Below are positions 1 to 9,809 of a DNA stretch of 38,662 nucleotides, piece after piece. Source of the DNA: a virus (taxonomy: Duplodnaviria > Heunggongvirae > Uroviricota > Caudoviricetes); the IMG/VR virus record IMGVR_UViG_2541047816_000001. One strand, given 5' to 3'. Under the pieces are notes generated by a model, which worked only from the letters and a program-made list of their open reading frames with translations, searched no databases and was not told the origin of the DNA. The position numbers and the translations under genes were made by a program. How positions within the stretch are numbered: position 1 is the first letter of the stretch; every line of letters begins with the position of its first letter.

Positions 1-1053
1 TTACGGGGTAATGCCAACCGCTGCCGCCACTTTGTCGCCACTTGGCAGCGTTGCCAGAGGATTGAAACGGAGCGCCGTTTCTAGATGATCCGGTGCCAGA
101 TGTGCGTAACGCATAGTCATTTTTATATCGTGGTGTCCGAGAATTTTTTGTAAGGCCAGAATGTTTCCACCCGACATCATGAAGTGCGCCGCAAACGTAT
201 GGCGCAGAACGTGTGTGAGTTGACCGCGAGGGAGCACGATAGACGTTTTTTCCATCACGGATAAAAATTGAAAATAGCAGTCTGTGAAGAAATTGAACCC
301 ATCAAGCGCCATGATCTCTTCATAAAGCTCTTTACTGATAGGGATGCTTCTGTTTTTCTTCCCCTTCGTTCTTACAAAGGTAATTCGGTATTTAGTCACC
401 TGTGATCGGGTAAGATTTATTGCTTCTCGCCAGCGTGCGCCTGTGCTTAAGCATATCTTGACTACCAGTGCCAGAATTGGGTCCTGACGTTTGCAATCAG
501 CCAGCAGTTCAACAATCTGCTCATGGGTAAGCCATGCCATCTCTTTTTCTGCGATGGTGAATTTTCGCATGTTCTCCAGTGGGTTTGGATACGACCATTC
601 GCCCAGGCGGGATAGTTCGCTAAAAACACTACTTAGATAGCTTTGCTCCAGGTTAATGGTGACCGGGCTGGCTCCTTTCTTCCATTTCTCGCTGAAGTAG
701 ATCTCACCTGTCAGGCGTTTATCTCGATAGTGGGCAAACATTTTAGAGGTGAGATTGGTTGCAAGAGGATTGCCTAGAGCGTCAACCATCAGCAGCAATT
801 TGTCATAGACATGCTGTCCAGCAGTCAGAGATTTACCATGTAATTTGAACCATAGCTCAACCACGTCTTTCAGGGTTCGACGATCCACTGATTCGCCCAG
901 CCAGGGCTTTGATTCGGTTTCTTCCATCGTGTGACGCTCAAAAGCCAGAGCTTCGCCTTTGGTGGCGAATTGTTTACGCACACGACGCCCACTTCGTCCG
1001 GCGGGGTAACATTCGCAAAGCCATTTCCCTGTGGTGAGTTTTCGTACTGCCAT
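1..1053 (-). CDS. int: Tyrosine site-specific integrase (P2 Int-like)
   Basis: 350-aa ORF; C-terminal catalytic region HVLRHTFAAHFMMSGG...LGHHDIKMTMRYAHL with conserved R, H-x-x-R and Tyr; position at prophage edge next to the repressor region. Confidence 0.9.
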   Translation of the reverse strand: MAVRKLTTGKWLCECYPAGRSGRRVRKQFATKGEALAFERHTMEETESKPWLGESVDRRTLKDVVELWFKLHGKSLTAGQHVYDKLLLMVDALGNPLATNLTSKMFAHYRDKRLTGEIYFSEKWKKGASPVTINLEQSYLSSVFSELSRLGEWSYPNPLENMRKFTIAEKEMAWLTHEQIVELLADCKRQDPILALVVKICLSTGARWREAINLTRSQVTKYRITFVRTKGKKNRSIPISKELYEEIMALDGFNFFTDCYFQFLSVMEKTSIVLPRGQLTHVLRHTFAAHFMMSGGNILALQKILGHHDIKMTMRYAHLAPDHLETALRFNPLATLPSGDKVAAAVGITP

Positions 1054-1082
1054 AAAAAATGCCCTCCAGTGGAGAGCATTTA

Positions 1083-1102
1083 TACTGTTTTTTTATACAG
1101 TG
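1083..1102. promoter_or_regulatory. LexA-box-like motif TACTGTTTTTTTATACAGTG (CTGT-N8-ACAG) in the int upstream region
   Basis: Seen directly: matches SOS box consensus TACTGT-(AT-rich N8)-ACAGT; lies 30-50 nt upstream of the int start codon on the minus strand. Confidence 0.4.
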
Positions 1103-1143
1103 TCAATGTATGATGATTGGATAACTATACATATGTTATGTGT

Positions 1144-1824
1144 TTAATGCATTTTAGTTACATCTATGTTTTTATTGATTGTCTCTTTGTTACTGGAAAG
1201 TCTTTGTTCTTTTCTTTTAATGTATAACTCCCAACGAATATTATTCATTATGATAGCGTAGATATTAAAAATAAATGTCTTTACTACTAACACTAAGTAA
1301 ATAAGGCTAGTCCCTATAACACAGTATCCAAATTTAATAATTAATTCTTTTATCGATTTTGAATATGGAAATAAATCAATTATATTGCCAATTATTCCAT
1401 CTTTTTGACAAAAGAGAATTATTATTAGATAAATGAAAGTAAACGTAATAAATGAGATGAAAACTTTCATAAATGCCATAAAGTTATATTTTAACGTGGG
1501 CATCTGTGTTTTTTTATGTTGTATTGACATCATCTGAAGAAACATCTCGGGTTTGGATAGTGTTGCAAATATTGTGAAACCAGCAATGAGAAAACCTAAG
1601 GTTGTCACTGCAAAGTTAAAACCAATCAAAGCCCAGTTTCTAATGTCAGATACTAAATGAGACATATCCTTCTCAATAAAAAAAGAGTTTGTTAATAAAA
1701 AAATAGATGCTGTGAGCAAAATGCAAATATGGAATGTACTAATAGTAATCCGTTTGCAGAGCAAGTAAACATCCCAAAGGTTTTTCTCTTTGGTTATTTC
1801 TTTAGCATCTATTTTATTTATCAT
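1144..1824 (-). CDS. Hypothetical integral membrane protein, about 4 predicted TM helices, part of AT-rich moron cassette
   Basis: 226-aa ORF; four long hydrophobic stretches; very low GC (about 30%) versus prophage backbone; start overlaps upstream gene stop by 4 nt. Confidence 0.6.
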   Translation of the reverse strand: MINKIDAKEITKEKNLWDVYLLCKRITISTFHICILLTASIFLLTNSFFIEKDMSHLVSDIRNWALIGFNFAVTTLGFLIAGFTIFATLSKPEMFLQMMSIQHKKTQMPTLKYNFMAFMKVFISFITFTFIYLIIILFCQKDGIIGNIIDLFPYSKSIKELIIKFGYCVIGTSLIYLVLVVKTFIFNIYAIIMNNIRWELYIKRKEQRLSSNKETINKNIDVTKMH

Positions 1825-2849
1825 CGACCAAACCTTTCATATATATTGCTAATAATTCTAATCGTCTTTTGTGAAAGAGAACGGGGTAGAGATATCTTAC
1901 CTTCTTCTACAAGATTTTCATACCGCTCATAACTTTCATTTGCAGCTACTACCGTATCCTTTGATAATTCATTCATCTCACTTAACAAAACAAAGTCATC
2001 ATTGCTACCTTTGATTATATCACCATTGTCATCATATCCTTTAATATTTATTCCTGAATTAGCCAATCTGGTTGCTGATGTGAGTTGTTCTAAAACAGCA
2101 CCATGATTCAAGCCTGAATCGGTGTTTGAAAAGCGAATAGATGTAGAAATACTTCCCATTTCGTCTCCGGCACTTTCAAGTGACTCCCAAAATTCGTCGT
2201 TATCAATTTCTTCTTGATTTGTAGGGAGAAGTTTTACTGAGACATTTTGGATTTTATTAAAATTATCAATAAATTGCTCTAGGCTTTGTTTGTCAGTTAA
2301 CGGCGTTATTCTTAGCTTCGGGCGTTTGATTTCGTTCCGTAAGCTTTTTTTAGTGACTCGAGGTAAGTCAGGGTTTTCTTTGCGTTCTTCTTGTGCGGTT
2401 TCGTATAAATGAGATATGTATTTTTCATATTCTATGTTTAAGAAACACTGACTTGTTGACTGAAAGTTTTGAATTGTGGGAGCACCACTAACTTCCTTGC
2501 AAAGAATTAATCTGTGAGTGTTTAATATTAGAAGAAAGAAAGAGCTCGGGGCTGTTTCAAGCTCTTGATGATCTTCAACCAAATCAGCACCATCAAATAC
2601 TTGTTCTCTGGTTAATAATGTATTCTTAATAATCCGACCTTTAATTCCGAGTACTGGGGGTGTTGCTTCTTCGTCAAGTATGACGCATTCAGTATCAATG
2701 AAAAAGAACTCTGATTTGTCAGATATTCTGCGGATGTTTGCCATCTCCAAAAAAGAGGGGAAAACAATTTCATCATAATAGTCTAGCAAAACATCATCAC
2801 CAAAACGGAGAGTATAATTTCCAAATTCGAGTTTTTTTATAAAATCCAT
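1821..2849 (-). CDS. Hypothetical soluble protein, 342 aa, first gene of AT-rich cassette downstream of the repressor
   Basis: Long ORF with acidic stretches and no motif I recognise; 15 nt downstream of the repressor stop, co-oriented, translationally coupled to the membrane protein gene. Confidence 0.6.
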   Translation of the reverse strand: MDFIKKLEFGNYTLRFGDDVLLDYYDEIVFPSFLEMANIRRISDKSEFFFIDTECVILDEEATPPVLGIKGRIIKNTLLTREQVFDGADLVEDHQELETAPSSFFLLILNTHRLILCKEVSGAPTIQNFQSTSQCFLNIEYEKYISHLYETAQEERKENPDLPRVTKKSLRNEIKRPKLRITPLTDKQSLEQFIDNFNKIQNVSVKLLPTNQEEIDNDEFWESLESAGDEMGSISTSIRFSNTDSGLNHGAVLEQLTSATRLANSGINIKGYDDNGDIIKGSNDDFVLLSEMNELSKDTVVAANESYERYENLVEEGKISLPRSLSQKTIRIISNIYERFGR

Positions 2850-2864
2850 TACTATGCCTCAAGA

Positions 2865-3743
2865 TTAAATAGTACGGTACTGTGAGAAAATTTTGGCAAC
2901 TAATTTTATATCTTCTTTTTCACAATCAAATGTTAAATCATCGTCTGTTACTCGAAGATTGCCTCCAGGTAATAGAAAAATTTGTTTTAACTTGAAATTA
3001 TTTTGGTATTGAACAATCCATCTTCCGTCTTCAACATTAGCTTTATTCATGTGTGCAATATTTATGCAATGTTCGTCTTCAATTGCGAGTAAATCATTAA
3101 AATGAGGAAGCAGGGACTTATCTATCAATAAATGACCAGCATCGAAAATTTGATTGTCAATAAGTTTTACTTTAGGAATTTCTAAAGCTTCACTTTCTTC
3201 GCTTCCAAGTTTTTGCCCGCGCCCAGTTGCTAACCATAAAAGAGAAGTTCTTGTTTCCAACGAGCATCTTATGATCCAGTCAGCTGGGAATGTGTCTCGC
3301 AAGTATCTATTCGCCATTGTGCTTTTAGACACATTCAAATGGTCGGCAAGTTCTTGTCTTGTTTTAAAGCCATACGCTTCCATTAGCCTGTTTATCGCAT
3401 TACGTCCACCTGAATCCAGATTTGGATGGTTCACAATTGGGTTCTCGTTGGTGGTGGCTTTGGGAACATATTGAACCAATGATGCTGGTTCCTCTAATTT
3501 AGCGGGAACTTCGGTATTCTTAGGAAATGGCACGCCTTTTCCGAATGAGAGCCACTCTATAGATGCTCCTGTTTCAATTGCACACTGAATTACCCAGTCA
3601 GCAGGAAATGCGTCACGCATCCAGCGCGTTCCCATAGTACTTGCAGATACATTGAACTGTTCACATAGGGCTTGCCGCGTCTTGAATCCATACGCTTCAA
3701 GCATGCGCGTTATGACTGCCTGTCCTCCGTTTTTGAAATTCAT
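2865..3743 (-). CDS. Immunity repressor, phage 186 CI-like, with tandemly duplicated N-terminal HTH domain
   Basis: Two homologous segments (..RMLEAYGFKTRQALCEQFNVSASTMGTRWMRDAFPADWVIQCAIETGASIEWL.. and ..RLMEAYGFKTRQELADHLNVSKSTMANRYLRDTFPADWIIRCSLETRTSLLWL..) resembling the 186 CI N-terminal domain as I recall it, plus a C-terminal domain; position between int and the Apl/Cox-like gene, transcribed divergently from it. Confidence 0.7.
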   Translation of the reverse strand: MNFKNGGQAVITRMLEAYGFKTRQALCEQFNVSASTMGTRWMRDAFPADWVIQCAIETGASIEWLSFGKGVPFPKNTEVPAKLEEPASLVQYVPKATTNENPIVNHPNLDSGGRNAINRLMEAYGFKTRQELADHLNVSKSTMANRYLRDTFPADWIIRCSLETRTSLLWLATGRGQKLGSEESEALEIPKVKLIDNQIFDAGHLLIDKSLLPHFNDLLAIEDEHCINIAHMNKANVEDGRWIVQYQNNFKLKQIFLLPGGNLRVTDDDLTFDCEKEDIKLVAKIFSQYRTI

Positions 3744-4632: not shown

Positions 4633-4806
4633 GGTGCTTATGCTGACGAAAGAACCATCATTTGCATCGCTGCTGGTAAAACAAAGCCCGGCAATGCACT
4701 ACGGTCACGGCTGGATCATGGGTGAGGATGGTAAACGCTGGCATCCGTGCCGTTCACAAGATGAATTGCTGTCTGAATTGACCACGGGGAAACGGAGAAA
4801 GTCAAA

Positions 4807-5923: not shown

Positions 5924-6222
5924 CAGGGGCTGTGCGTATCCATCAATTAAAAATTGCACCTAAGTATTTCAACGCTGTGGTTGCAGGTCAAAAGACGGCT
6001 GAACTTCGTAAAGACGATCGTGGCTATAAAGTTGGTGATGTTCTTTCTCTTTGCGAATGGAAGCATGGCGTATTTACGGGTAGGGAATGGGCCGCGGTTA
6101 TCTCTCATGTGCTTCCGGTTAATGACGTCATGGCAGTTTCAGAACAATGGGTGATGCTATCAATTCGCTCATTAACCCCATTAGAAGCTTTAGGATATGT
6201 TATTGCAGGAGGTGCTGTATGA
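5920..6222 (+). CDS. Small PUA/ASCH-like domain protein
   Basis: 100-aa ORF from ATG 5920 (ATGA overlap with previous stop, GGAGGTG RBS); sequence pattern ..[28 protein letters not shown].. resembles ASCH/DUF-type domains common in P2-like early regions (family assignment tentative). Confidence 0.45.
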
Positions 6223-7085
6223 GCACCATCCTGAAATGGGCGGGAAATAAAACCGCAATTATGTCCGAACTGAAAAAACACCTTCCTGCTGGCCCGCGAC
6301 TGGTTGAACCTTTCGCGGGTTCCTGTGCTGTGATGATGGAGACGGATTATCCAAGCTATCTGGTTGCGGATATTAATCCTGATTTAATCAACCTCTATAA
6401 AAAGGTTGCCGCTGATTGTGAATCGTTTATATCTCGCGCCAGAGTTTTATTTAAGGAAGCAAACAGGGAGGTGGCTTATTACAACATAAGGCAGGAGTTT
6501 AATTACTCAAATGAAATTACTGATTTCATGAAAGCGGTATATTTCCTGTATCTCAATCGTCACGGTTACCGTGGTTTATGTCGCTATAACAAGAGCGGGC
6601 ATTTCAACATTCCCTACGGTAATTATAAAAATCCGTATTTCCCAGAAAAAGAAATTCGCGCATTTGCAGAAAAAGCCCAGCGGGCAACGTTTATCTGCGC
6701 CAGCTTTGATGAAACGCTGGCGATGTTGAAGGCGGGGGATGTGGTGTATTGCGATCCGCCGTATGACGGCACGTTTTCCGGTTATCACACTGACGGCTTC
6801 ACTGAAGATGACCAGTATCACCTGGCATCCGTTCTTGAACATCGGTCATCAGAAGGACATCCGGTCATTGTTTCTAACAGTGACACATCCCTGATCCGTT
6901 CGCTGTATCGCAATTTTACTCACCACTACATCAAGGCAAAACGCAGCATCGGCGTAGCAGCTGGTGAGAGTAAATCTGCAACAGAAATCATCGCTGTTTC
7001 TGGGCGCGCTGCTGGGTGGGATTTGAGCCTTCGCGTGGCGTGGATAGTTCTGCCGTGTACGGAGTGCGTGCATGAGCCATGCTGA
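6219..7085 (+). CDS. DNA N6-adenine methyltransferase, Dam family
   Basis: N-terminal LKWAGNK, FAGSCAV SAM-binding region and catalytic DPPY motif (CDPPYDGTF); ATG 6219 overlaps previous stop. Confidence 0.8.
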
Positions 7086-9486
7086 TATGAACAACTGCAG
7101 CGGCTTTAACGAGGCCGCCGCAGCATTCTCATGGAACAGCCCGAAAAAGGCTATTAACCCTTATCTGGACCCGGCGGAAGTTGCGCCGGTTTCTGCGCTT
7201 TCAAACCTGATCACTCTGTACGCTGCCGATAACGAGCAGGAACAACTGCGCCGCGAGGCACTGAGTGATCAGGTCTGGGAGCGTTATTTCTTTAATGAAT
7301 CCCGTGATCCTGTCCAACGCGAAATGGAGCAGGATAAGCTCATTAGCCGGGCAAAGCTGGCGCATGAGCAGCAGCGTTTTAATCCAGATATGGTCATTCT
7401 GGCGGACGTCAATGCCCAGCCTTCCCATATCAGCAAGCCGCTGTTGCAACGTATTGAATACTTCAGCAGCCTAGGCAGGCCAAAGGCTTATTCCCGCTAT
7501 TTGCGTGAGACGATTAAGCCATGTCTGGAACGACTGGAGCATGTACGCGACAGTCAGCTATCCACTTCTTTTCGCTTTATGGCAAGCCATGAAGGGCTGG
7601 ACGGCCTGCTGATCCTGCCTGAAATGAGTCAGGATCAGGTGAAACGCTTGTCTACCCTTGTCGCTGCGCATATGAGCATGTGCCTTGATGCAGCTTGTGG
7701 CGATTTGTATGTCACCGATGACGTTAAGCCAGAAGAAATCCGCAAGACATGGGAAAAGGTGGCAGCGGAAACCCTGCGTCTGGATGTCATCCCGCCTGCG
7801 TTTGATCAACTCCGCCGGAAAAGAAACCGCCGTAAACCCGTGCCCTATGAACTCATTCCGGGTTCGCTGGCGCGTATGTTGTGCGCCGACTGGTGGTACC
7901 GGAAATTATGGAAGATGCGTTGCGAATGGCGGGAAGAGCAGTTGCGTGCTGTTTGCCTGGTCAGCAAAAAAGCATCTCCCTATGTCAGCTATGAAGCCGT
8001 GATGCATAAACGTGAGCAGCGCCGTAAGTCGCTGGAGTTTTTTCGTTCTCATGAACTGGTGAACGAAGACGGCGACACGCTGGACATGGAGGATGTGGTA
8101 AACGCCAGCAGCAGCAACCCTGCGCATCGCCGCAATGAGATGATGGCCTGTGTTAAAGGCCTGGAGCTTATCGCGGAAATGCGCGGTGACTGCGCCGTTT
8201 TCTACACCATCACCTGTCCGTCACGTTTCCATTCCACGCTAAATAACGGCAGGCCCAACCCAACCTGGACAAATGCGACGGTAAGACAAAGTAGTGATTA
8301 TCTGGTCGGCATGTTTGCTGCATTTCGTAAGGCGATGCACAAAGCCGGATTGCGCTGGTATGGCGTGCGGGTGGCTGAGCCGCATCATGACGGTACAGTT
8401 CACTGGCACCTGTTGTGTTTTATGCGCAAAAAAGACCGCCGCGCCATCACTGCATTACTGCGTAAGTTTGCCATCCGTGAAGACCGCGAGGAGCTGGGCA
8501 ATAACACTGGGCCGCGCTTTAAGTCTGAGTTGATTAACCCGCGCAAAGGTACGCCAACAAGCTACATCGCGAAATACATCAGTAAGAACATGGACGGGCG
8601 TGGTCTGGCTGGCGAGATCAGCAAGGAAACGGGGAAATCCCTGCGTGATAATGCTGAATACGTTAATGCTTGGGCGTCTCTGCATCGTGTTCAGCAATTC
8701 CGCTTCTTTGGCATTCCGGGGCGTCAGGCTTACCGTGAACTGCGATTGCTGGCTGGTCAGGCGGCAAGGCAACAGGGGGACAAAAAAGCAGGTGCGCCGG
8801 TACTGGATAACCCGCGCCTTGATGCAATCCTGGCTGCTGCTGATGCTGGTTGTTTTGCCACCTACATTATGAAGCAGGGCGGCGTACTGGTTCCCCGCAA
8901 ATATCACCTTATCAGAACAGCTTATGAAATTAACGAAGAGCCGACCGCCTATGGCGATCACGGTATTCGTATTTATGGCATCTGGTCACCCATTGCAGAG
9001 GGCAAGATTTGTACTCATGCAGTGAAGTGGAAAATGGTTCGTAAGGCCGTTGACGTTCAGGAGGCGGCAGCCGACCAGGGCGCTTGCGCCCCTTGGACTC
9101 GTGGCAATAACTGTCCCCTTGCTGAAAATTTGAACCAACAGGAGAAAGATAAATCAACAGATGGGGATACCAGAACTGACATTACCTGTATGGATGACAA
9201 GGAGTTGCACGATTACCTGCATAGTATGAGCAAAAAAGAGCGCCAGGAACTGGCAGCAAGATTACGCCTGGTGAAACCGAAACGGCGTAAAGACTACAAA
9301 CAGCGAATTACAGAGTATCAGCGTCAGCAGCTCGTCTATGAACTGAAGTCAAGAGGATTTGATGGCAGCGAGAAAGAGGTCGATTTACTCCTTCGCGGTG
9401 GCAGTATTCCGTCAGGAGCAGGCCTGCGTATCTTCTATCGGAACCAGCGTTTGCAGGAAGATGATAAGTGGCGGAACCTGTATTAA
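7072..9486 (+). CDS. A: Rolling-circle replication initiation endonuclease (P2 gpA-like)
   Basis: 804-aa ORF; HUH-type motif (GTVHWHLL) followed by paired-tyrosine motif (YIAKYISK); position after early genes. Confidence 0.85.
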
Positions 9487-9577: not shown

Positions 9578-9597
9578 TACTGTAAATATAAACAGTG
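9578..9597. promoter_or_regulatory. LexA-box-like motif TACTGTAAATATAAACAGTG
   Basis: Seen directly: CTGT-N8-ACAG with TACTGT/ACAGT flanks and AT-rich spacer, in AT-rich intergenic region about 40 nt upstream of a small ORF with strong RBS. Confidence 0.5.
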
Positions 9598-9638: not shown

Positions 9639-9809
9639 ATGCAGGACTATTTTTTGGAGTCTTTGAAGCTCCAGCGCATTGATTTTTTTCTTAAGCTTGT
9701 AGCGGCTAGTGAGTGTAGTGATGAAGAGAAGGGGCTGGCTCTGCAGTGGGTTTCTGAGTTGACTGATGAGCTGATGGCGAGAATTCGCGCTCATGAATAC
9801 AACCACTAG
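9639..9809 (+). CDS. Small hypothetical protein (56 aa), possible SOS-controlled antirepressor-type gene
   Basis: ATG preceded by TAGGAGGAAAG RBS; below the 60-aa threshold of the ORF track; function inferred only from position downstream of the LexA-like box. Confidence 0.35.
   Translation: MQDYFLESLKLQRIDFFLKLVAASECSDEEKGLALQWVSELTDELMARIRAHEYNH

What the first reader, a model, noticed from the sequence alone, without database searches (positions are those of the whole stretch)
1144..2849. AT-rich two-gene cassette co-transcribed with the repressor: RexAB-like arrangement (soluble 342-aa protein plus 4-TM membrane protein)
Seen: two tightly coupled minus-strand genes (4-nt overlap) start 15 nt after the CI-like repressor stop and end just before int. 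GC content is about 30%, far below the prophage backbone, marking a horizontally acquired moron. The distal product has about four transmembrane helices. Established knowledge: lambda cI is co-transcribed in lysogens with rexA and rexB, where a soluble sensor and a four-helix membrane channel cause abortive infection; P2 itself has int directly adjacent to C. Inference: a lysogen-expressed exclusion or abortive-infection pair analogous in layout to Rex. I see no sequence homology to RexA or RexB, so this may be a distinct family.
Basis: partly seen in the sequence, partly recalled or inferred. Interest (0 to 1): 0.75.

Follow-up and report, generated by a model that had tools for sequence, protein, structure and literature searches.

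The report
RexAB-type phage-exclusion pair behind repressor
Two tightly coupled genes placed right after the repressor of a 186-like E. coli prophage encode a protein with the fold of phage lambda RexA and a four-helix membrane partner. This is most likely an uncharacterised relative of the classic RexAB system, by which a resident prophage blocks other phages.

Summary
Minus-strand genes A (1821-2849, 342 aa, soluble) and B (1144-1824, 226 aa, four TM helices) overlap by 4 nt. A starts 15 nt after the stop of a 186-type cI, and B ends 90 nt before int. GC is 0.35 and 0.28 against 0.52 for the backbone.

B has the RexB-like N-in/C-in 4-TM topology but no detectable homology to RexB.

A and B are adjacent in 27 of 27 loci. 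The A family has about 690 clusters at 50% identity. The pair recurs as cI-A-B-int in Escherichia, Kosakonia, Serratia and Klebsiella phage 4LV2017, and lies beside Druantia and GmrSD elsewhere.

In other E. coli strains the same cI-int slot holds PD-Lambda-1 or the PADLOC candidates PDC-S20 and PDC-M11.

Verdict: an untested new member of the RexAB-type two-component exclusion systems. Moderate interest.

The parts
2865..3743 (-). 186-type CI immunity repressor (292 aa, with a duplicated N-terminal HTH domain). It is the first gene of the presumed lysogenic operon that continues into A and B.
   Evidence: Pfam Phage_CI_repr x2 (E 4e-59) and Phage_CI_C (E 2e-16). RefSeq annotates the identical locus as 'phage repressor protein CI'. 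The two N-terminal repeats are 43% identical.
2850..2864 (-). 15-nt spacer between the cI stop and the A start (TCTTGAGGCATAGTA), containing a GAGG ribosome-binding site. It is too short for a promoter or terminator.
   Evidence: Sequence read. Comparable short spacers occur in Kosakonia (15 nt), Serratia (14 nt) and Klebsiella phage 4LV2017 (2 nt).
1821..2849 (-). Gene A: soluble 342-aa protein (39.2 kDa, pI 4.7) with a RexA/RdgC-like fold. Proposed infection sensor and activator.
1144..1824 (-). Gene B: 226-aa basic (pI 9.5) inner-membrane protein with four TM helices, predicted N-in/C-in. Proposed membrane effector.
   Evidence: Hydropathy and K/R counts: 18 K/R in the N-terminus, central loop and C-terminus against 5 in loops 1 and 3. 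AlphaFold2 model pLDDT 82 with four long helices. TM2 is the most conserved segment, with 82% mean identity. B directly follows A in 27 of 27 loci.
1054..1143 (-). Conserved int-proximal boundary of the cargo slot. It contains a sigma-70-like promoter (-35 TTGACA 1106-1101, -10 TATAAA 1084-1079) whose 16-nt spacer is a LexA-box-like palindrome (CTGT-N8-ACAG, 1100-1085). A hairpin follows at 1077-1061, then T6 (1059-1054) directly before the int ATG.
   Evidence: Sequence read. Hairpin dG is -14.4 kcal/mol. TTGA, ACTG and CAGT are invariant and the stem shows compensatory changes across 8 prophage variants. The function is inferred, not tested.
1..1053 (-). P2/186-type tyrosine integrase, the downstream boundary of the slot.
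   Evidence: RefSeq annotation 'phage integrase' next to rcdA.

Best explanation
A and B form a RexAB-type two-component phage-exclusion (abortive-infection) module. It is carried as cargo in the cI-int slot of a 186-like prophage.

Inferred mechanism:
1. In the lysogen the pair is transcribed together with cI, as the distal part of the repressor operon.
2. A is a cytoplasmic protein with the RexA/RdgC fold. By analogy it is a dimer that binds DNA or a phage protein-DNA intermediate. It senses a superinfecting phage.
3. A then engages the conserved cytoplasmic face of B (N-terminal TxEKxLW motif, central loop, C-terminal RW motif).
4. B is a four-helix inner-membrane protein that compromises membrane integrity or potential. 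This stops growth and aborts the infection, protecting the lysogen population and the prophage.

What is shown: the gene anatomy, the RexA-like fold of A, the topology of B, the obligate pairing, and the defence-type genomic contexts.

What is inferred from characterised RexAB-type systems: co-transcription with cI, the A-B interaction, the trigger, and the membrane effect.

For: 2. Secondary-structure order. In A, an N-terminal beta-sheet region, a central alpha/beta domain and C-terminal helices match RexA's split globular domain with an inserted dimerisation domain.

3. Membrane partner. B has four TM helices with an N-in/C-in charge bias, as published for RexB, Sbash gp31, CarolAnn gp43 and P. 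putida RexBpp.

4. Gene order. Repressor, then soluble protein, then membrane protein, with a 15-nt and a 4-nt junction. This mirrors lambda cI-rexA-rexB and CarolAnn 45-44-43.

5. Obligate pair. B follows A in 27 of 27 loci, with junctions ranging from a 4-nt overlap to a few nt apart.

6. Defence context.
- The same slot in other E. coli prophages holds PD-Lambda-1, PDC-S20 (a KAP NTPase) or PDC-M11.
- In Vibrio harveyi the pair abuts a Druantia locus (DruA).
- In Cobetia it sits between an Eco57I-type methylase plus DEAD/MZB helicase and GmrSD.
- In one P2-like metagenomic phage it lies near ogr and portal.

7. Precedent. RexAB-type pairs with only fold-level similarity to lambda RexA have been shown experimentally to defend: Sbash, CarolAnn and P. 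putida RexABpp.
Against: - There is no experimental datum for this pair: no expression, interaction or phenotype.
- Sequence-level homology to RexA is not significant (hhalign prob about 1%). The DUF4747 link is marginal: 3 of 44 and 1 of 52 family members, best E 1.7e-4, below the Pfam threshold.
- B shows no detectable relation to RexB. The hhalign score of 16.7 was reached by 30 of 200 column shuffles, and no RexB-like hit appeared in BFVD. B is also about 80 residues longer.
- Global TM-scores to 8TWQ are low (0.29 and 0.34). This is expected if the inter-domain angle differs, but it means the match is domain-wise.
- This A is acidic (pI 4.7 against 8.6 for RexA), so DNA binding is not assured.
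- The mechanism of lambda Rex itself is unsettled, and RexA has a second role in the lysis-lysogeny switch (PMC11077077).
- In phage Butters the roles of the two proteins are reversed.
Confidence: 0.7

Rival explanations
1. A, with or without B, mainly tunes the prophage's own lysis-lysogeny switch, as lambda RexA does by binding DNA and CI to stabilise the lytic state. Any exclusion would be a by-product.
For: RexA has this documented second function and RexA homologues sit beside CI-like repressors (PMC11077077). In all 15 enterobacterial loci examined the pair directly follows a 186-type cI. The low-GC tract extends into the 3' end of cI.
Against: The pair occurs intact with no cI or int nearby in Vibrio, Pseudomonas, Pseudoalteromonas, Cobetia and Aeromonas chromosomes, some of them in defence islands. 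In a P2-like phage it lies away from the immunity region. Most related 186-like prophages lack it and carry other cargo in the slot. The associated cI proteins are only 44-51% identical, so there is no fixed partner repressor.
Confidence: 0.1
2. The pair acts at the envelope without abortive infection, with A as a regulator. For example, B could act as a superinfection-exclusion protein that blocks DNA entry, as Sie or Imm proteins do. Alternatively the pair could be a membrane-toxin addiction module that stabilises the prophage.
For: B is a small polytopic inner-membrane protein expressed from a prophage, and many Sie proteins are of this kind. The pair is AT-rich mobile cargo found next to toxin-antitoxin genes in two loci: HigB and HipA.
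Against: The strictly conserved partnership with a 340-aa RexA-fold cytoplasmic protein (27 of 27 loci) is not a feature of known Sie proteins. The conserved residues of B cluster on the predicted cytoplasmic side and in TM2 rather than on the periplasmic loops. Characterised RexAB-type systems allow injection and early gene expression.
Confidence: 0.1
3. A is an RdgC-like, DNA-binding modulator of recombination or replication that serves the prophage or its host. B is an unrelated membrane protein that happens to be co-inherited.
Against: RexA scores higher than RdgC by both methods. A is never found without B in the 27 informative loci, and the junctions are overlapping or only a few nt apart. 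This argues for a two-protein unit.
Confidence: 0.05

Closest known systems
Phage lambda RexA/RexB (Pfam PF15969/PF15968; RexA structure PDB 8TWQ)
   Same: - Gene order: repressor, then soluble protein, then 4-TM membrane protein, on the lysogenic strand.
- B has a RexB-like N-in/C-in four-helix topology.
- Both are prophage cargo with GC below the backbone.
   Different: - No significant sequence similarity for either protein.
- A is 63 residues longer and acidic.
- B is 82 residues longer, with a conserved N-terminal cytoplasmic motif that RexB lacks.
- The host phage is a P2/186-type myovirus, not a lambdoid.
- The pair also occurs outside prophages.
Pseudomonas putida prophage P1 RexABpp (PP_5643/PP_5644; Rosendahl et al. 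2026, PMC12894663)
   Same: - A RexA-like protein of about 37 kDa plus a membrane protein with four predicted TM helices and at least 181 residues, downstream of a CI-like repressor.
- Protein sizes are close to the A and B families here.
- Shown experimentally to defend and to damage membranes.
   Different: - I could not obtain the PP_5643 and PP_5644 sequences, so membership of the same sequence family is untested.
- In P. putida two extra genes separate the pair from the repressor.
Actinobacteriophage Rex-like systems: CarolAnn gp44/gp43, Sbash gp30/gp31, Butters gp30/gp31 (the 'DUF4747/CarolAnn' system)
   Same: - A soluble protein of about 370 aa plus a 4-TM partner, expressed in the lysogen.
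- CarolAnn's pair is co-transcribed with its repressor.
- A weak DUF4747 signal appears in a few A-family members.
   Different: - No detectable sequence similarity of the A family to gp44 or of the B family to gp43.
- Neither A nor CarolAnn gp44 reaches the Pfam DUF4747 threshold.
- The host phyla differ.
RdgC (recombination-associated DNA-binding protein, PDB 2OWL)
   Different: RdgC is a housekeeping, stand-alone protein without a membrane partner. A matches RexA better.
cI-int defence hotspot of P2-related phages (Rousset et al. 2022, PMC9122126)
   Same: [quoted passage not shown] Here the slot holds PD-Lambda-1, PDC-S20, PDC-M11 or this pair.
   Different: It was described for K139-like phages of Vibrionaceae. 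Here it is seen in rcdA-integrated 186-like prophages of E. coli and in Serratia, Kosakonia and Klebsiella.

Membership tests
Lambda RexAB | Soluble component matches the RexA sequence family (Pfam PF15969) | tested here: not met
   No RexA hit at E<=1, whereas lambda RexA scores 1e-97. hhalign of A1 or A4 against RexA gives prob about 1%.
Lambda RexAB | Soluble component has the RexA fold (split globular domain plus inserted dimerisation domain, RdgC-like) | tested here: met
Lambda RexAB | Membrane component matches the RexB family (Pfam PF15968) | tested here: not met
   No Pfam hit. Profile-profile score 16.7, no better than column shuffles (30 of 200 reached it). No significant match and no RexB among the listed hits in BFVD (best E 0.56).
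Lambda RexAB | Four-TM inner-membrane partner, both termini cytoplasmic, encoded immediately downstream of the soluble gene | tested here: met
   Hydropathy, K/R distribution of 18 against 5, and AlphaFold helices. 4-nt overlap. Adjacent in 27 of 27 loci.
Lambda RexAB | Co-transcription with the immunity repressor in the lysogen | tested here: inconclusive
   15-nt spacer with an RBS and no terminator-like site between cI and A. The tight junction is conserved in four genera. No transcript data are available.
Lambda RexAB | Both proteins required to exclude a superinfecting phage, with membrane depolarisation or damage | not testable with these tools
   Needs phage challenge and membrane-potential assays.
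Lambda RexAB | Soluble component dimerises and binds DNA non-specifically | not testable with these tools
   Only monomer prediction was available. This A is acidic (pI 4.7), though family pI spans 4.6-9.9.
DUF4747/CarolAnn-type system | Soluble component matches Pfam DUF4747 (PF15931) at or above the gathering score | tested here: not met
   A gives no hit. 3 of 44 and 1 of 52 homologues hit below threshold (best E 1.7e-4, 21.5 bits against a cut-off of 27).
DUF4747/CarolAnn-type system | Sequence similarity to CarolAnn gp44 and gp43 | tested here: not met
   hhalign prob 0.2% and 0.05%.
P. putida RexABpp | Sequence homology to PP_5643/PP_5644 | not tested
   The sequences are not in any collection I could query. 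The sizes are compatible.
Known or candidate defence families in PADLOC-DB v2 (including Kiwa KwaA/KwaB, another 4-TM plus soluble pair) | HMM match to any PADLOC model | tested here: not met
   No families at E<=1 for A or B. Only two weak hits (E 0.003-0.01) for one homologue.
RdgC | RdgC-like fold and stand-alone housekeeping gene | tested here: not met

The most novel reading that the evidence does not exclude
RexA-fold sensors may be modular parts that pair with unrelated membrane effectors. Under this reading the A/B family is a widespread, stand-alone defence system of Gammaproteobacteria, not a prophage speciality. It has about 690 clusters at 50% identity, is absent from Pfam, PADLOC, PHROGs and NCBIfam, and is found in defence islands as well as prophages. 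Its effector B would be evolutionarily distinct from RexB: about 200-226 aa, with a conserved cytoplasmic TxEKxLW motif, a TM2 motif and a C-terminal RW motif, and sometimes fused to an HTH_73 domain. If so, comparing A/B with lambda RexAB would separate what belongs to the sensor from what belongs to the effector. It would also provide an E. coli-native handle on the 70-year-old question of how Rex is triggered.
Probability: 0.25. Interest if true: 0.65.

Novelty: new member of a known kind. Interest (0 to 1): 0.5.

Why it matters
RexAB was the first abortive-infection system ever observed, yet its trigger and effector mechanism remain unsettled. A 2026 paper counts only five described RexAB-like systems.

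This pair is an uncharacterised lineage carried by natural E. coli prophages (13 of 5,426 complete genomes) and by a sequenced Klebsiella phage. It belongs to a large family with hundreds of diverged members and invariant residues. Current defence-annotation libraries miss it.

Because it lives in E. coli, it can be tested directly against standard phage panels. Its conserved motifs give ready targets for mutagenesis.

It also shows that the cI-int junction of 186-like prophages in Enterobacterales is a defence hotspot.

Tried and rejected
- Library scans (Pfam, PADLOC, PHROGs, NCBIfam) of A and B gave nothing at E<=1 beyond noise. This also disposes of Kiwa and the other PADLOC families.
- A profile search of the A family against PDB sequences found nothing; the best hit was E 2.2, a polygalacturonase.
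- hhalign of A1 and A4 against single-sequence RexA was not significant. Both runs picked the same segment, A 262-307 against RexA 211-256, which includes a shared D-x-x-G-D hairpin. I treat this as suggestive only.
- hhalign of the B family against a 15-member RexB family aligned the TM2 motifs (NFAVTTLGFLIAGFTIF against SYAGTMIAILIAALTFL). A column-shuffle control showed the score is ordinary, with 30 of 200 shuffles reaching it. I therefore rejected it as evidence of homology.
- Foldseek of the B model against BFVD gave no hit below E 0.5.
- CarolAnn gp44 and gp43 showed no similarity to the A and B families.
- DUF4747 membership was rejected as sub-threshold and rare in the family.
- A virion function suggested by the weak Phage_connect_1 hit (E 0.13) was rejected as noise.
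- The promoter scan found no enrichment of promoter-like sites in the region: 8 against 11.2 expected.
- The search for related loci with the diverse alignment A4 failed for lack of a conserved stretch. I did not run the costly genome contigs or metagenome scans because contexts were already sufficient.
- I could not retrieve P. putida PP_5643 and PP_5644 to test family identity.
Full report
OBSERVATION

The window begins with a P2/186-type integrase (1..1053, minus strand). Upstream of it on the same strand lie ORF B (1144..1824, 226 aa), ORF A (1821..2849, 342 aa) and a repressor gene (2865..3743, 292 aa).

- The repressor is a 186-type CI. It carries two Phage_CI_repr helix-turn-helix domains and one Phage_CI_C domain.
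- A and B overlap by ATGA. The A start codon lies 15 nt after the cI stop, behind a GAGG motif.
- GC is 0.28 for B and 0.35 for A, against 0.48 for int and 0.52 for the rest of the window. The low-GC tract continues into the 3' part of cI.
- A has no hydrophobic segment. B has four.

WHAT THE LIBRARIES SAY

Neither protein matches anything in Pfam, PADLOC-DB, PHROGs or NCBIfam at E<=1, apart from noise. RefSeq annotates both as hypothetical proteins.

Both are nevertheless real, conserved genes.

- A has 167 homologous clusters and B has 280 in the 90%-identity protein collection. They come from Kosakonia, Enterobacter, Serratia, Yersinia, Pectobacterium, Dickeya, Vibrio, Aeromonas, Shewanella, Pseudoalteromonas, Pseudomonas and others.
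- An exhaustive profile search with the A family finds 693 clusters at 50% identity with E<=1e-3, of which 353 have E<=1e-30.
- A few homologues give sub-threshold hits to Pfam DUF4747 (best E 1.7e-4; 3 of 44 and 1 of 52 members).
- That lead pointed to the literature on prophage 'Rex-like' systems. In those papers DUF4747 is the weak motif linking lambda RexA, Sbash gp30, CarolAnn gp44 and Butters gp30.

STRUCTURE

An AlphaFold2 model of A built on 44 homologues is confident (pLDDT 86, pTM 0.83).

- Foldseek against the PDB returns lambda RexA (8TWQ chains B and A) as the only significant hits (E 2.2e-6 and 1.5e-5, probability 1.00, alignment over the full length). The next hit has E 0.076.
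- This is the same neighbour list that Adams et al. reported for RexA itself (PMC11077077).
- The order of secondary-structure elements in A is an N-terminal sheet, a central alpha/beta domain and C-terminal helices. This agrees with RexA's split globular domain interrupted by a dimerisation domain.
- The global TM-scores are low (0.29 and 0.34). This fits a two-domain protein with a flexible hinge, but it means the similarity is domain-wise.
- At the sequence level hhalign is not significant.

So A is a fold-level homologue of RexA that sequence methods available here cannot see.

The model of B (pLDDT 82) has four long helices. The charge distribution is 18 K/R in the N-terminus, central loop and C-terminus against 5 in the other two loops. 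This predicts both termini in the cytoplasm, the topology published for RexB and its analogues.

Conservation in B is highest in TM2 (82% mean identity). It is also high in an N-terminal TxEKxLW motif, the central loop and a membrane-proximal RW motif just after TM4. That amounts to a conserved cytoplasmic face.

I found no evidence that B is related to RexB.

- There is no Pfam RexB hit.
- There is no BFVD structural hit below E 0.5.
- A profile-profile alignment to a 15-member RexB family aligns the two TM2 motifs, but its score was reached by 30 of 200 column-shuffled controls.
- CarolAnn gp43 and gp44 are likewise not detectably similar to the B and A families.

GENOMIC CONTEXT

The cassette is present at 99.7% DNA identity or higher in 13 of 5,426 complete E. 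coli genomes. In the one locus inspected (H1) the prophage lies next to rcdA.

About 1,100 genomes carry a related int 5' region. In those I inspected, the slot between cI and int holds other cargo:

- a KAP NTPase matching PADLOC candidate PDC-S20 (E 2e-171);
- PDC-M11A and PDC-M11B plus a DUF3644-like protein;
- a DUF4041 protein matching PD-Lambda-1 (E 2e-120);
- a 329-aa protein with no PADLOC match;
- or only a 63-aa ORF.

The slot is thus a defence hotspot. Rousset et al. described the same kind of hotspot between cI and int of P2-related Vibrio phages.

The A/B pair occupies this same slot, as cI-A-B-int, in several other genomes:

- Kosakonia sacchari, 80% identity;
- Serratia, 59% identity;
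- 11 of 13 IMG/VR viral contigs;
- Klebsiella phage 4LV2017 (Peduoviridae), where A is 42% identical and B is a 201-aa ORF that the record does not annotate.

More distant pairs (about 50% identity) are not tied to a repressor.

- In Vibrio harveyi the pair abuts a Druantia locus and an AlpA gene.
- In Cobetia it lies between an Eco57I-type methylase plus DEAD/MZB helicase and GmrSD.
- In Pseudomonas, Pseudoalteromonas and Aeromonas it stands alone.
- In one P2-like metagenomic phage it lies near ogr and portal.
- In one metagenomic locus B is fused to an HTH_73 domain, next to HipA-type toxin-antitoxin genes.

B follows A in all 27 loci where downstream sequence exists. The pair keeps GC 0.32-0.40 whatever the flanking GC, which ranges from 0.39 to 0.62.

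MECHANISM

The best-supported reading is a RexAB-type two-component exclusion module. Steps 1-3 are inferred; step 4 summarises what was shown experimentally in other systems.

1. The 15-nt cI-A junction, conserved as a tight junction in four genera, leaves no room for independent signals. A and B are therefore most likely the distal genes of the lysogenic cI operon.
2. Between B and int there is a hairpin followed by T6 (1077-1054, dG -14.4 kcal/mol). It could terminate that transcript.
3. By analogy with lambda RexA, RexApp, Sbash gp30 and CarolAnn gp44, A would sense an infection cue and then activate B. The cue could be a protein or a protein-DNA intermediate.
4. In lambda, Sbash, CarolAnn and P. 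putida, activation of the membrane partner leads to loss of membrane integrity or potential and to growth arrest.

What is shown here is the anatomy, the fold, the topology, the pairing and the context. The trigger, the A-B contact and the membrane effect are inferred.

RIVALS

- Role in the prophage's own switch, which is RexA's second function. The repressor adjacency fits, but the pair's frequent life outside prophages and the diversity of associated cI proteins (44-51% identity) argue against it.
- Injection-blocking Sie protein or an addiction module. This does not explain the obligate RexA-fold partner or the cytoplasmic conservation of B.
- Stand-alone RdgC-like role for A. The strict pairing contradicts it.

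NOVELTY

RexAB-type systems are a known kind. A 2026 paper counts five described examples. The cI-int hotspot is also known in principle.

What is new is this lineage. It is a large family invisible to current annotation libraries, resident in E. coli, with a membrane partner unrelated in sequence to RexB.

I could not test whether P. putida RexABpp belongs to the same sequence family. The protein sizes are compatible. If it does, the family already has one experimentally characterised member.

I rate the finding as a new member of a known kind, with moderate interest.

SIDE OBSERVATION

The conserved 90 nt before int contain a near-consensus promoter whose spacer is a LexA-box-like palindrome, followed by the hairpin that includes the int ribosome-binding site.

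The only other CTGT-N8-ACAG box in the window lies just after the replication gene A, ahead of a 56-aa ORF. From memory, that is where phage 186 has its SOS-controlled tum promoter; I did not verify this.

This suggests that int is insulated from lysogenic read-through and switched on by SOS. I did not test that.

Noticed in passing
window 1054-1106 (minus strand): Near-consensus sigma-70 promoter (TTGACA 1106-1101, 16-nt spacer, TATAAA 1084-1079) whose spacer is a LexA-box-like palindrome (CTGTATAAAAAAACAG, 1100-1085). A hairpin (1077-1061, dG -14.4) plus T6 follows; it contains the int RBS and ends at the int ATG. TTGA, ACTG and CAGT are invariant and the stem covaries in 8 prophage variants from three genera. 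This may be an SOS-controlled int promoter combined with a terminator or attenuator for the cI-cargo operon.
   Followed up: partly
window 9580-9595 and ORF 9639-9809 (+): The only other CTGT-N8-ACAG box in the 38.6-kb window lies just downstream of the replication gene A (7072-9486), ahead of a 56-aa ORF. From memory, phage 186 has its LexA-controlled tum antirepressor promoter at this position. The ORF is much shorter than Tum.
   Followed up: no
window 2865-3743 (-): The cI repressor is 292 aa with a tandem duplication of the N-terminal HTH domain; the repeats are 43% identical. Single-domain cI proteins in sister prophages are 189-198 aa. Double-domain versions also occur with other cargos (299 and 312 aa) and in Klebsiella phage 4LV2017 (313 aa).
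   Followed up: partly
L022 4681-5670; L019 6095-6877; L020 4783-4974; L002 7425-7607: The same cI-int slot in other E. coli strains also holds genes with no strong PADLOC match or none. These are a 329-aa hypothetical protein (no match), a 260-aa protein with only a weak DUF3644 hit, and small 60-63-aa ORFs directly after cI. They are candidate defence or accessory genes.
   Followed up: partly
L037 (NC_047818, Klebsiella phage 4LV2017) 1244-1849; L017 9029-9640: The B-family membrane gene is missing from the public annotation of phage 4LV2017, and it was not called in an Aeromonas caviae assembly. In both cases an intact 201-203-aa ORF directly follows the A homologue.
   Followed up: yes
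L015 9028-9885 (protein P0180): In one metagenomic locus the B homologue is 285 aa, with a C-terminal HTH_73 domain (E 2.7e-11) fused to the four-helix membrane part. It lies next to HipA-type toxin-antitoxin genes.
   Followed up: no
window 2700-3150: The low-GC tract (about 0.31) does not stop at the cI stop codon. It extends some 300-400 bp into the C-terminal domain of cI. This suggests the recombination boundary of the imported module lies inside cI.
   Followed up: no
L001 9587-9742 and 11166-12022 (about window 4640-4795 and 6219-7075): In the E. coli genome that matches the cassette at 100%, RefSeq marks the Fil-family gene as truncated and the Dam-type methylase as frameshifted. The prophage may be partly decayed. 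I did not check this in the window itself.
   Followed up: no
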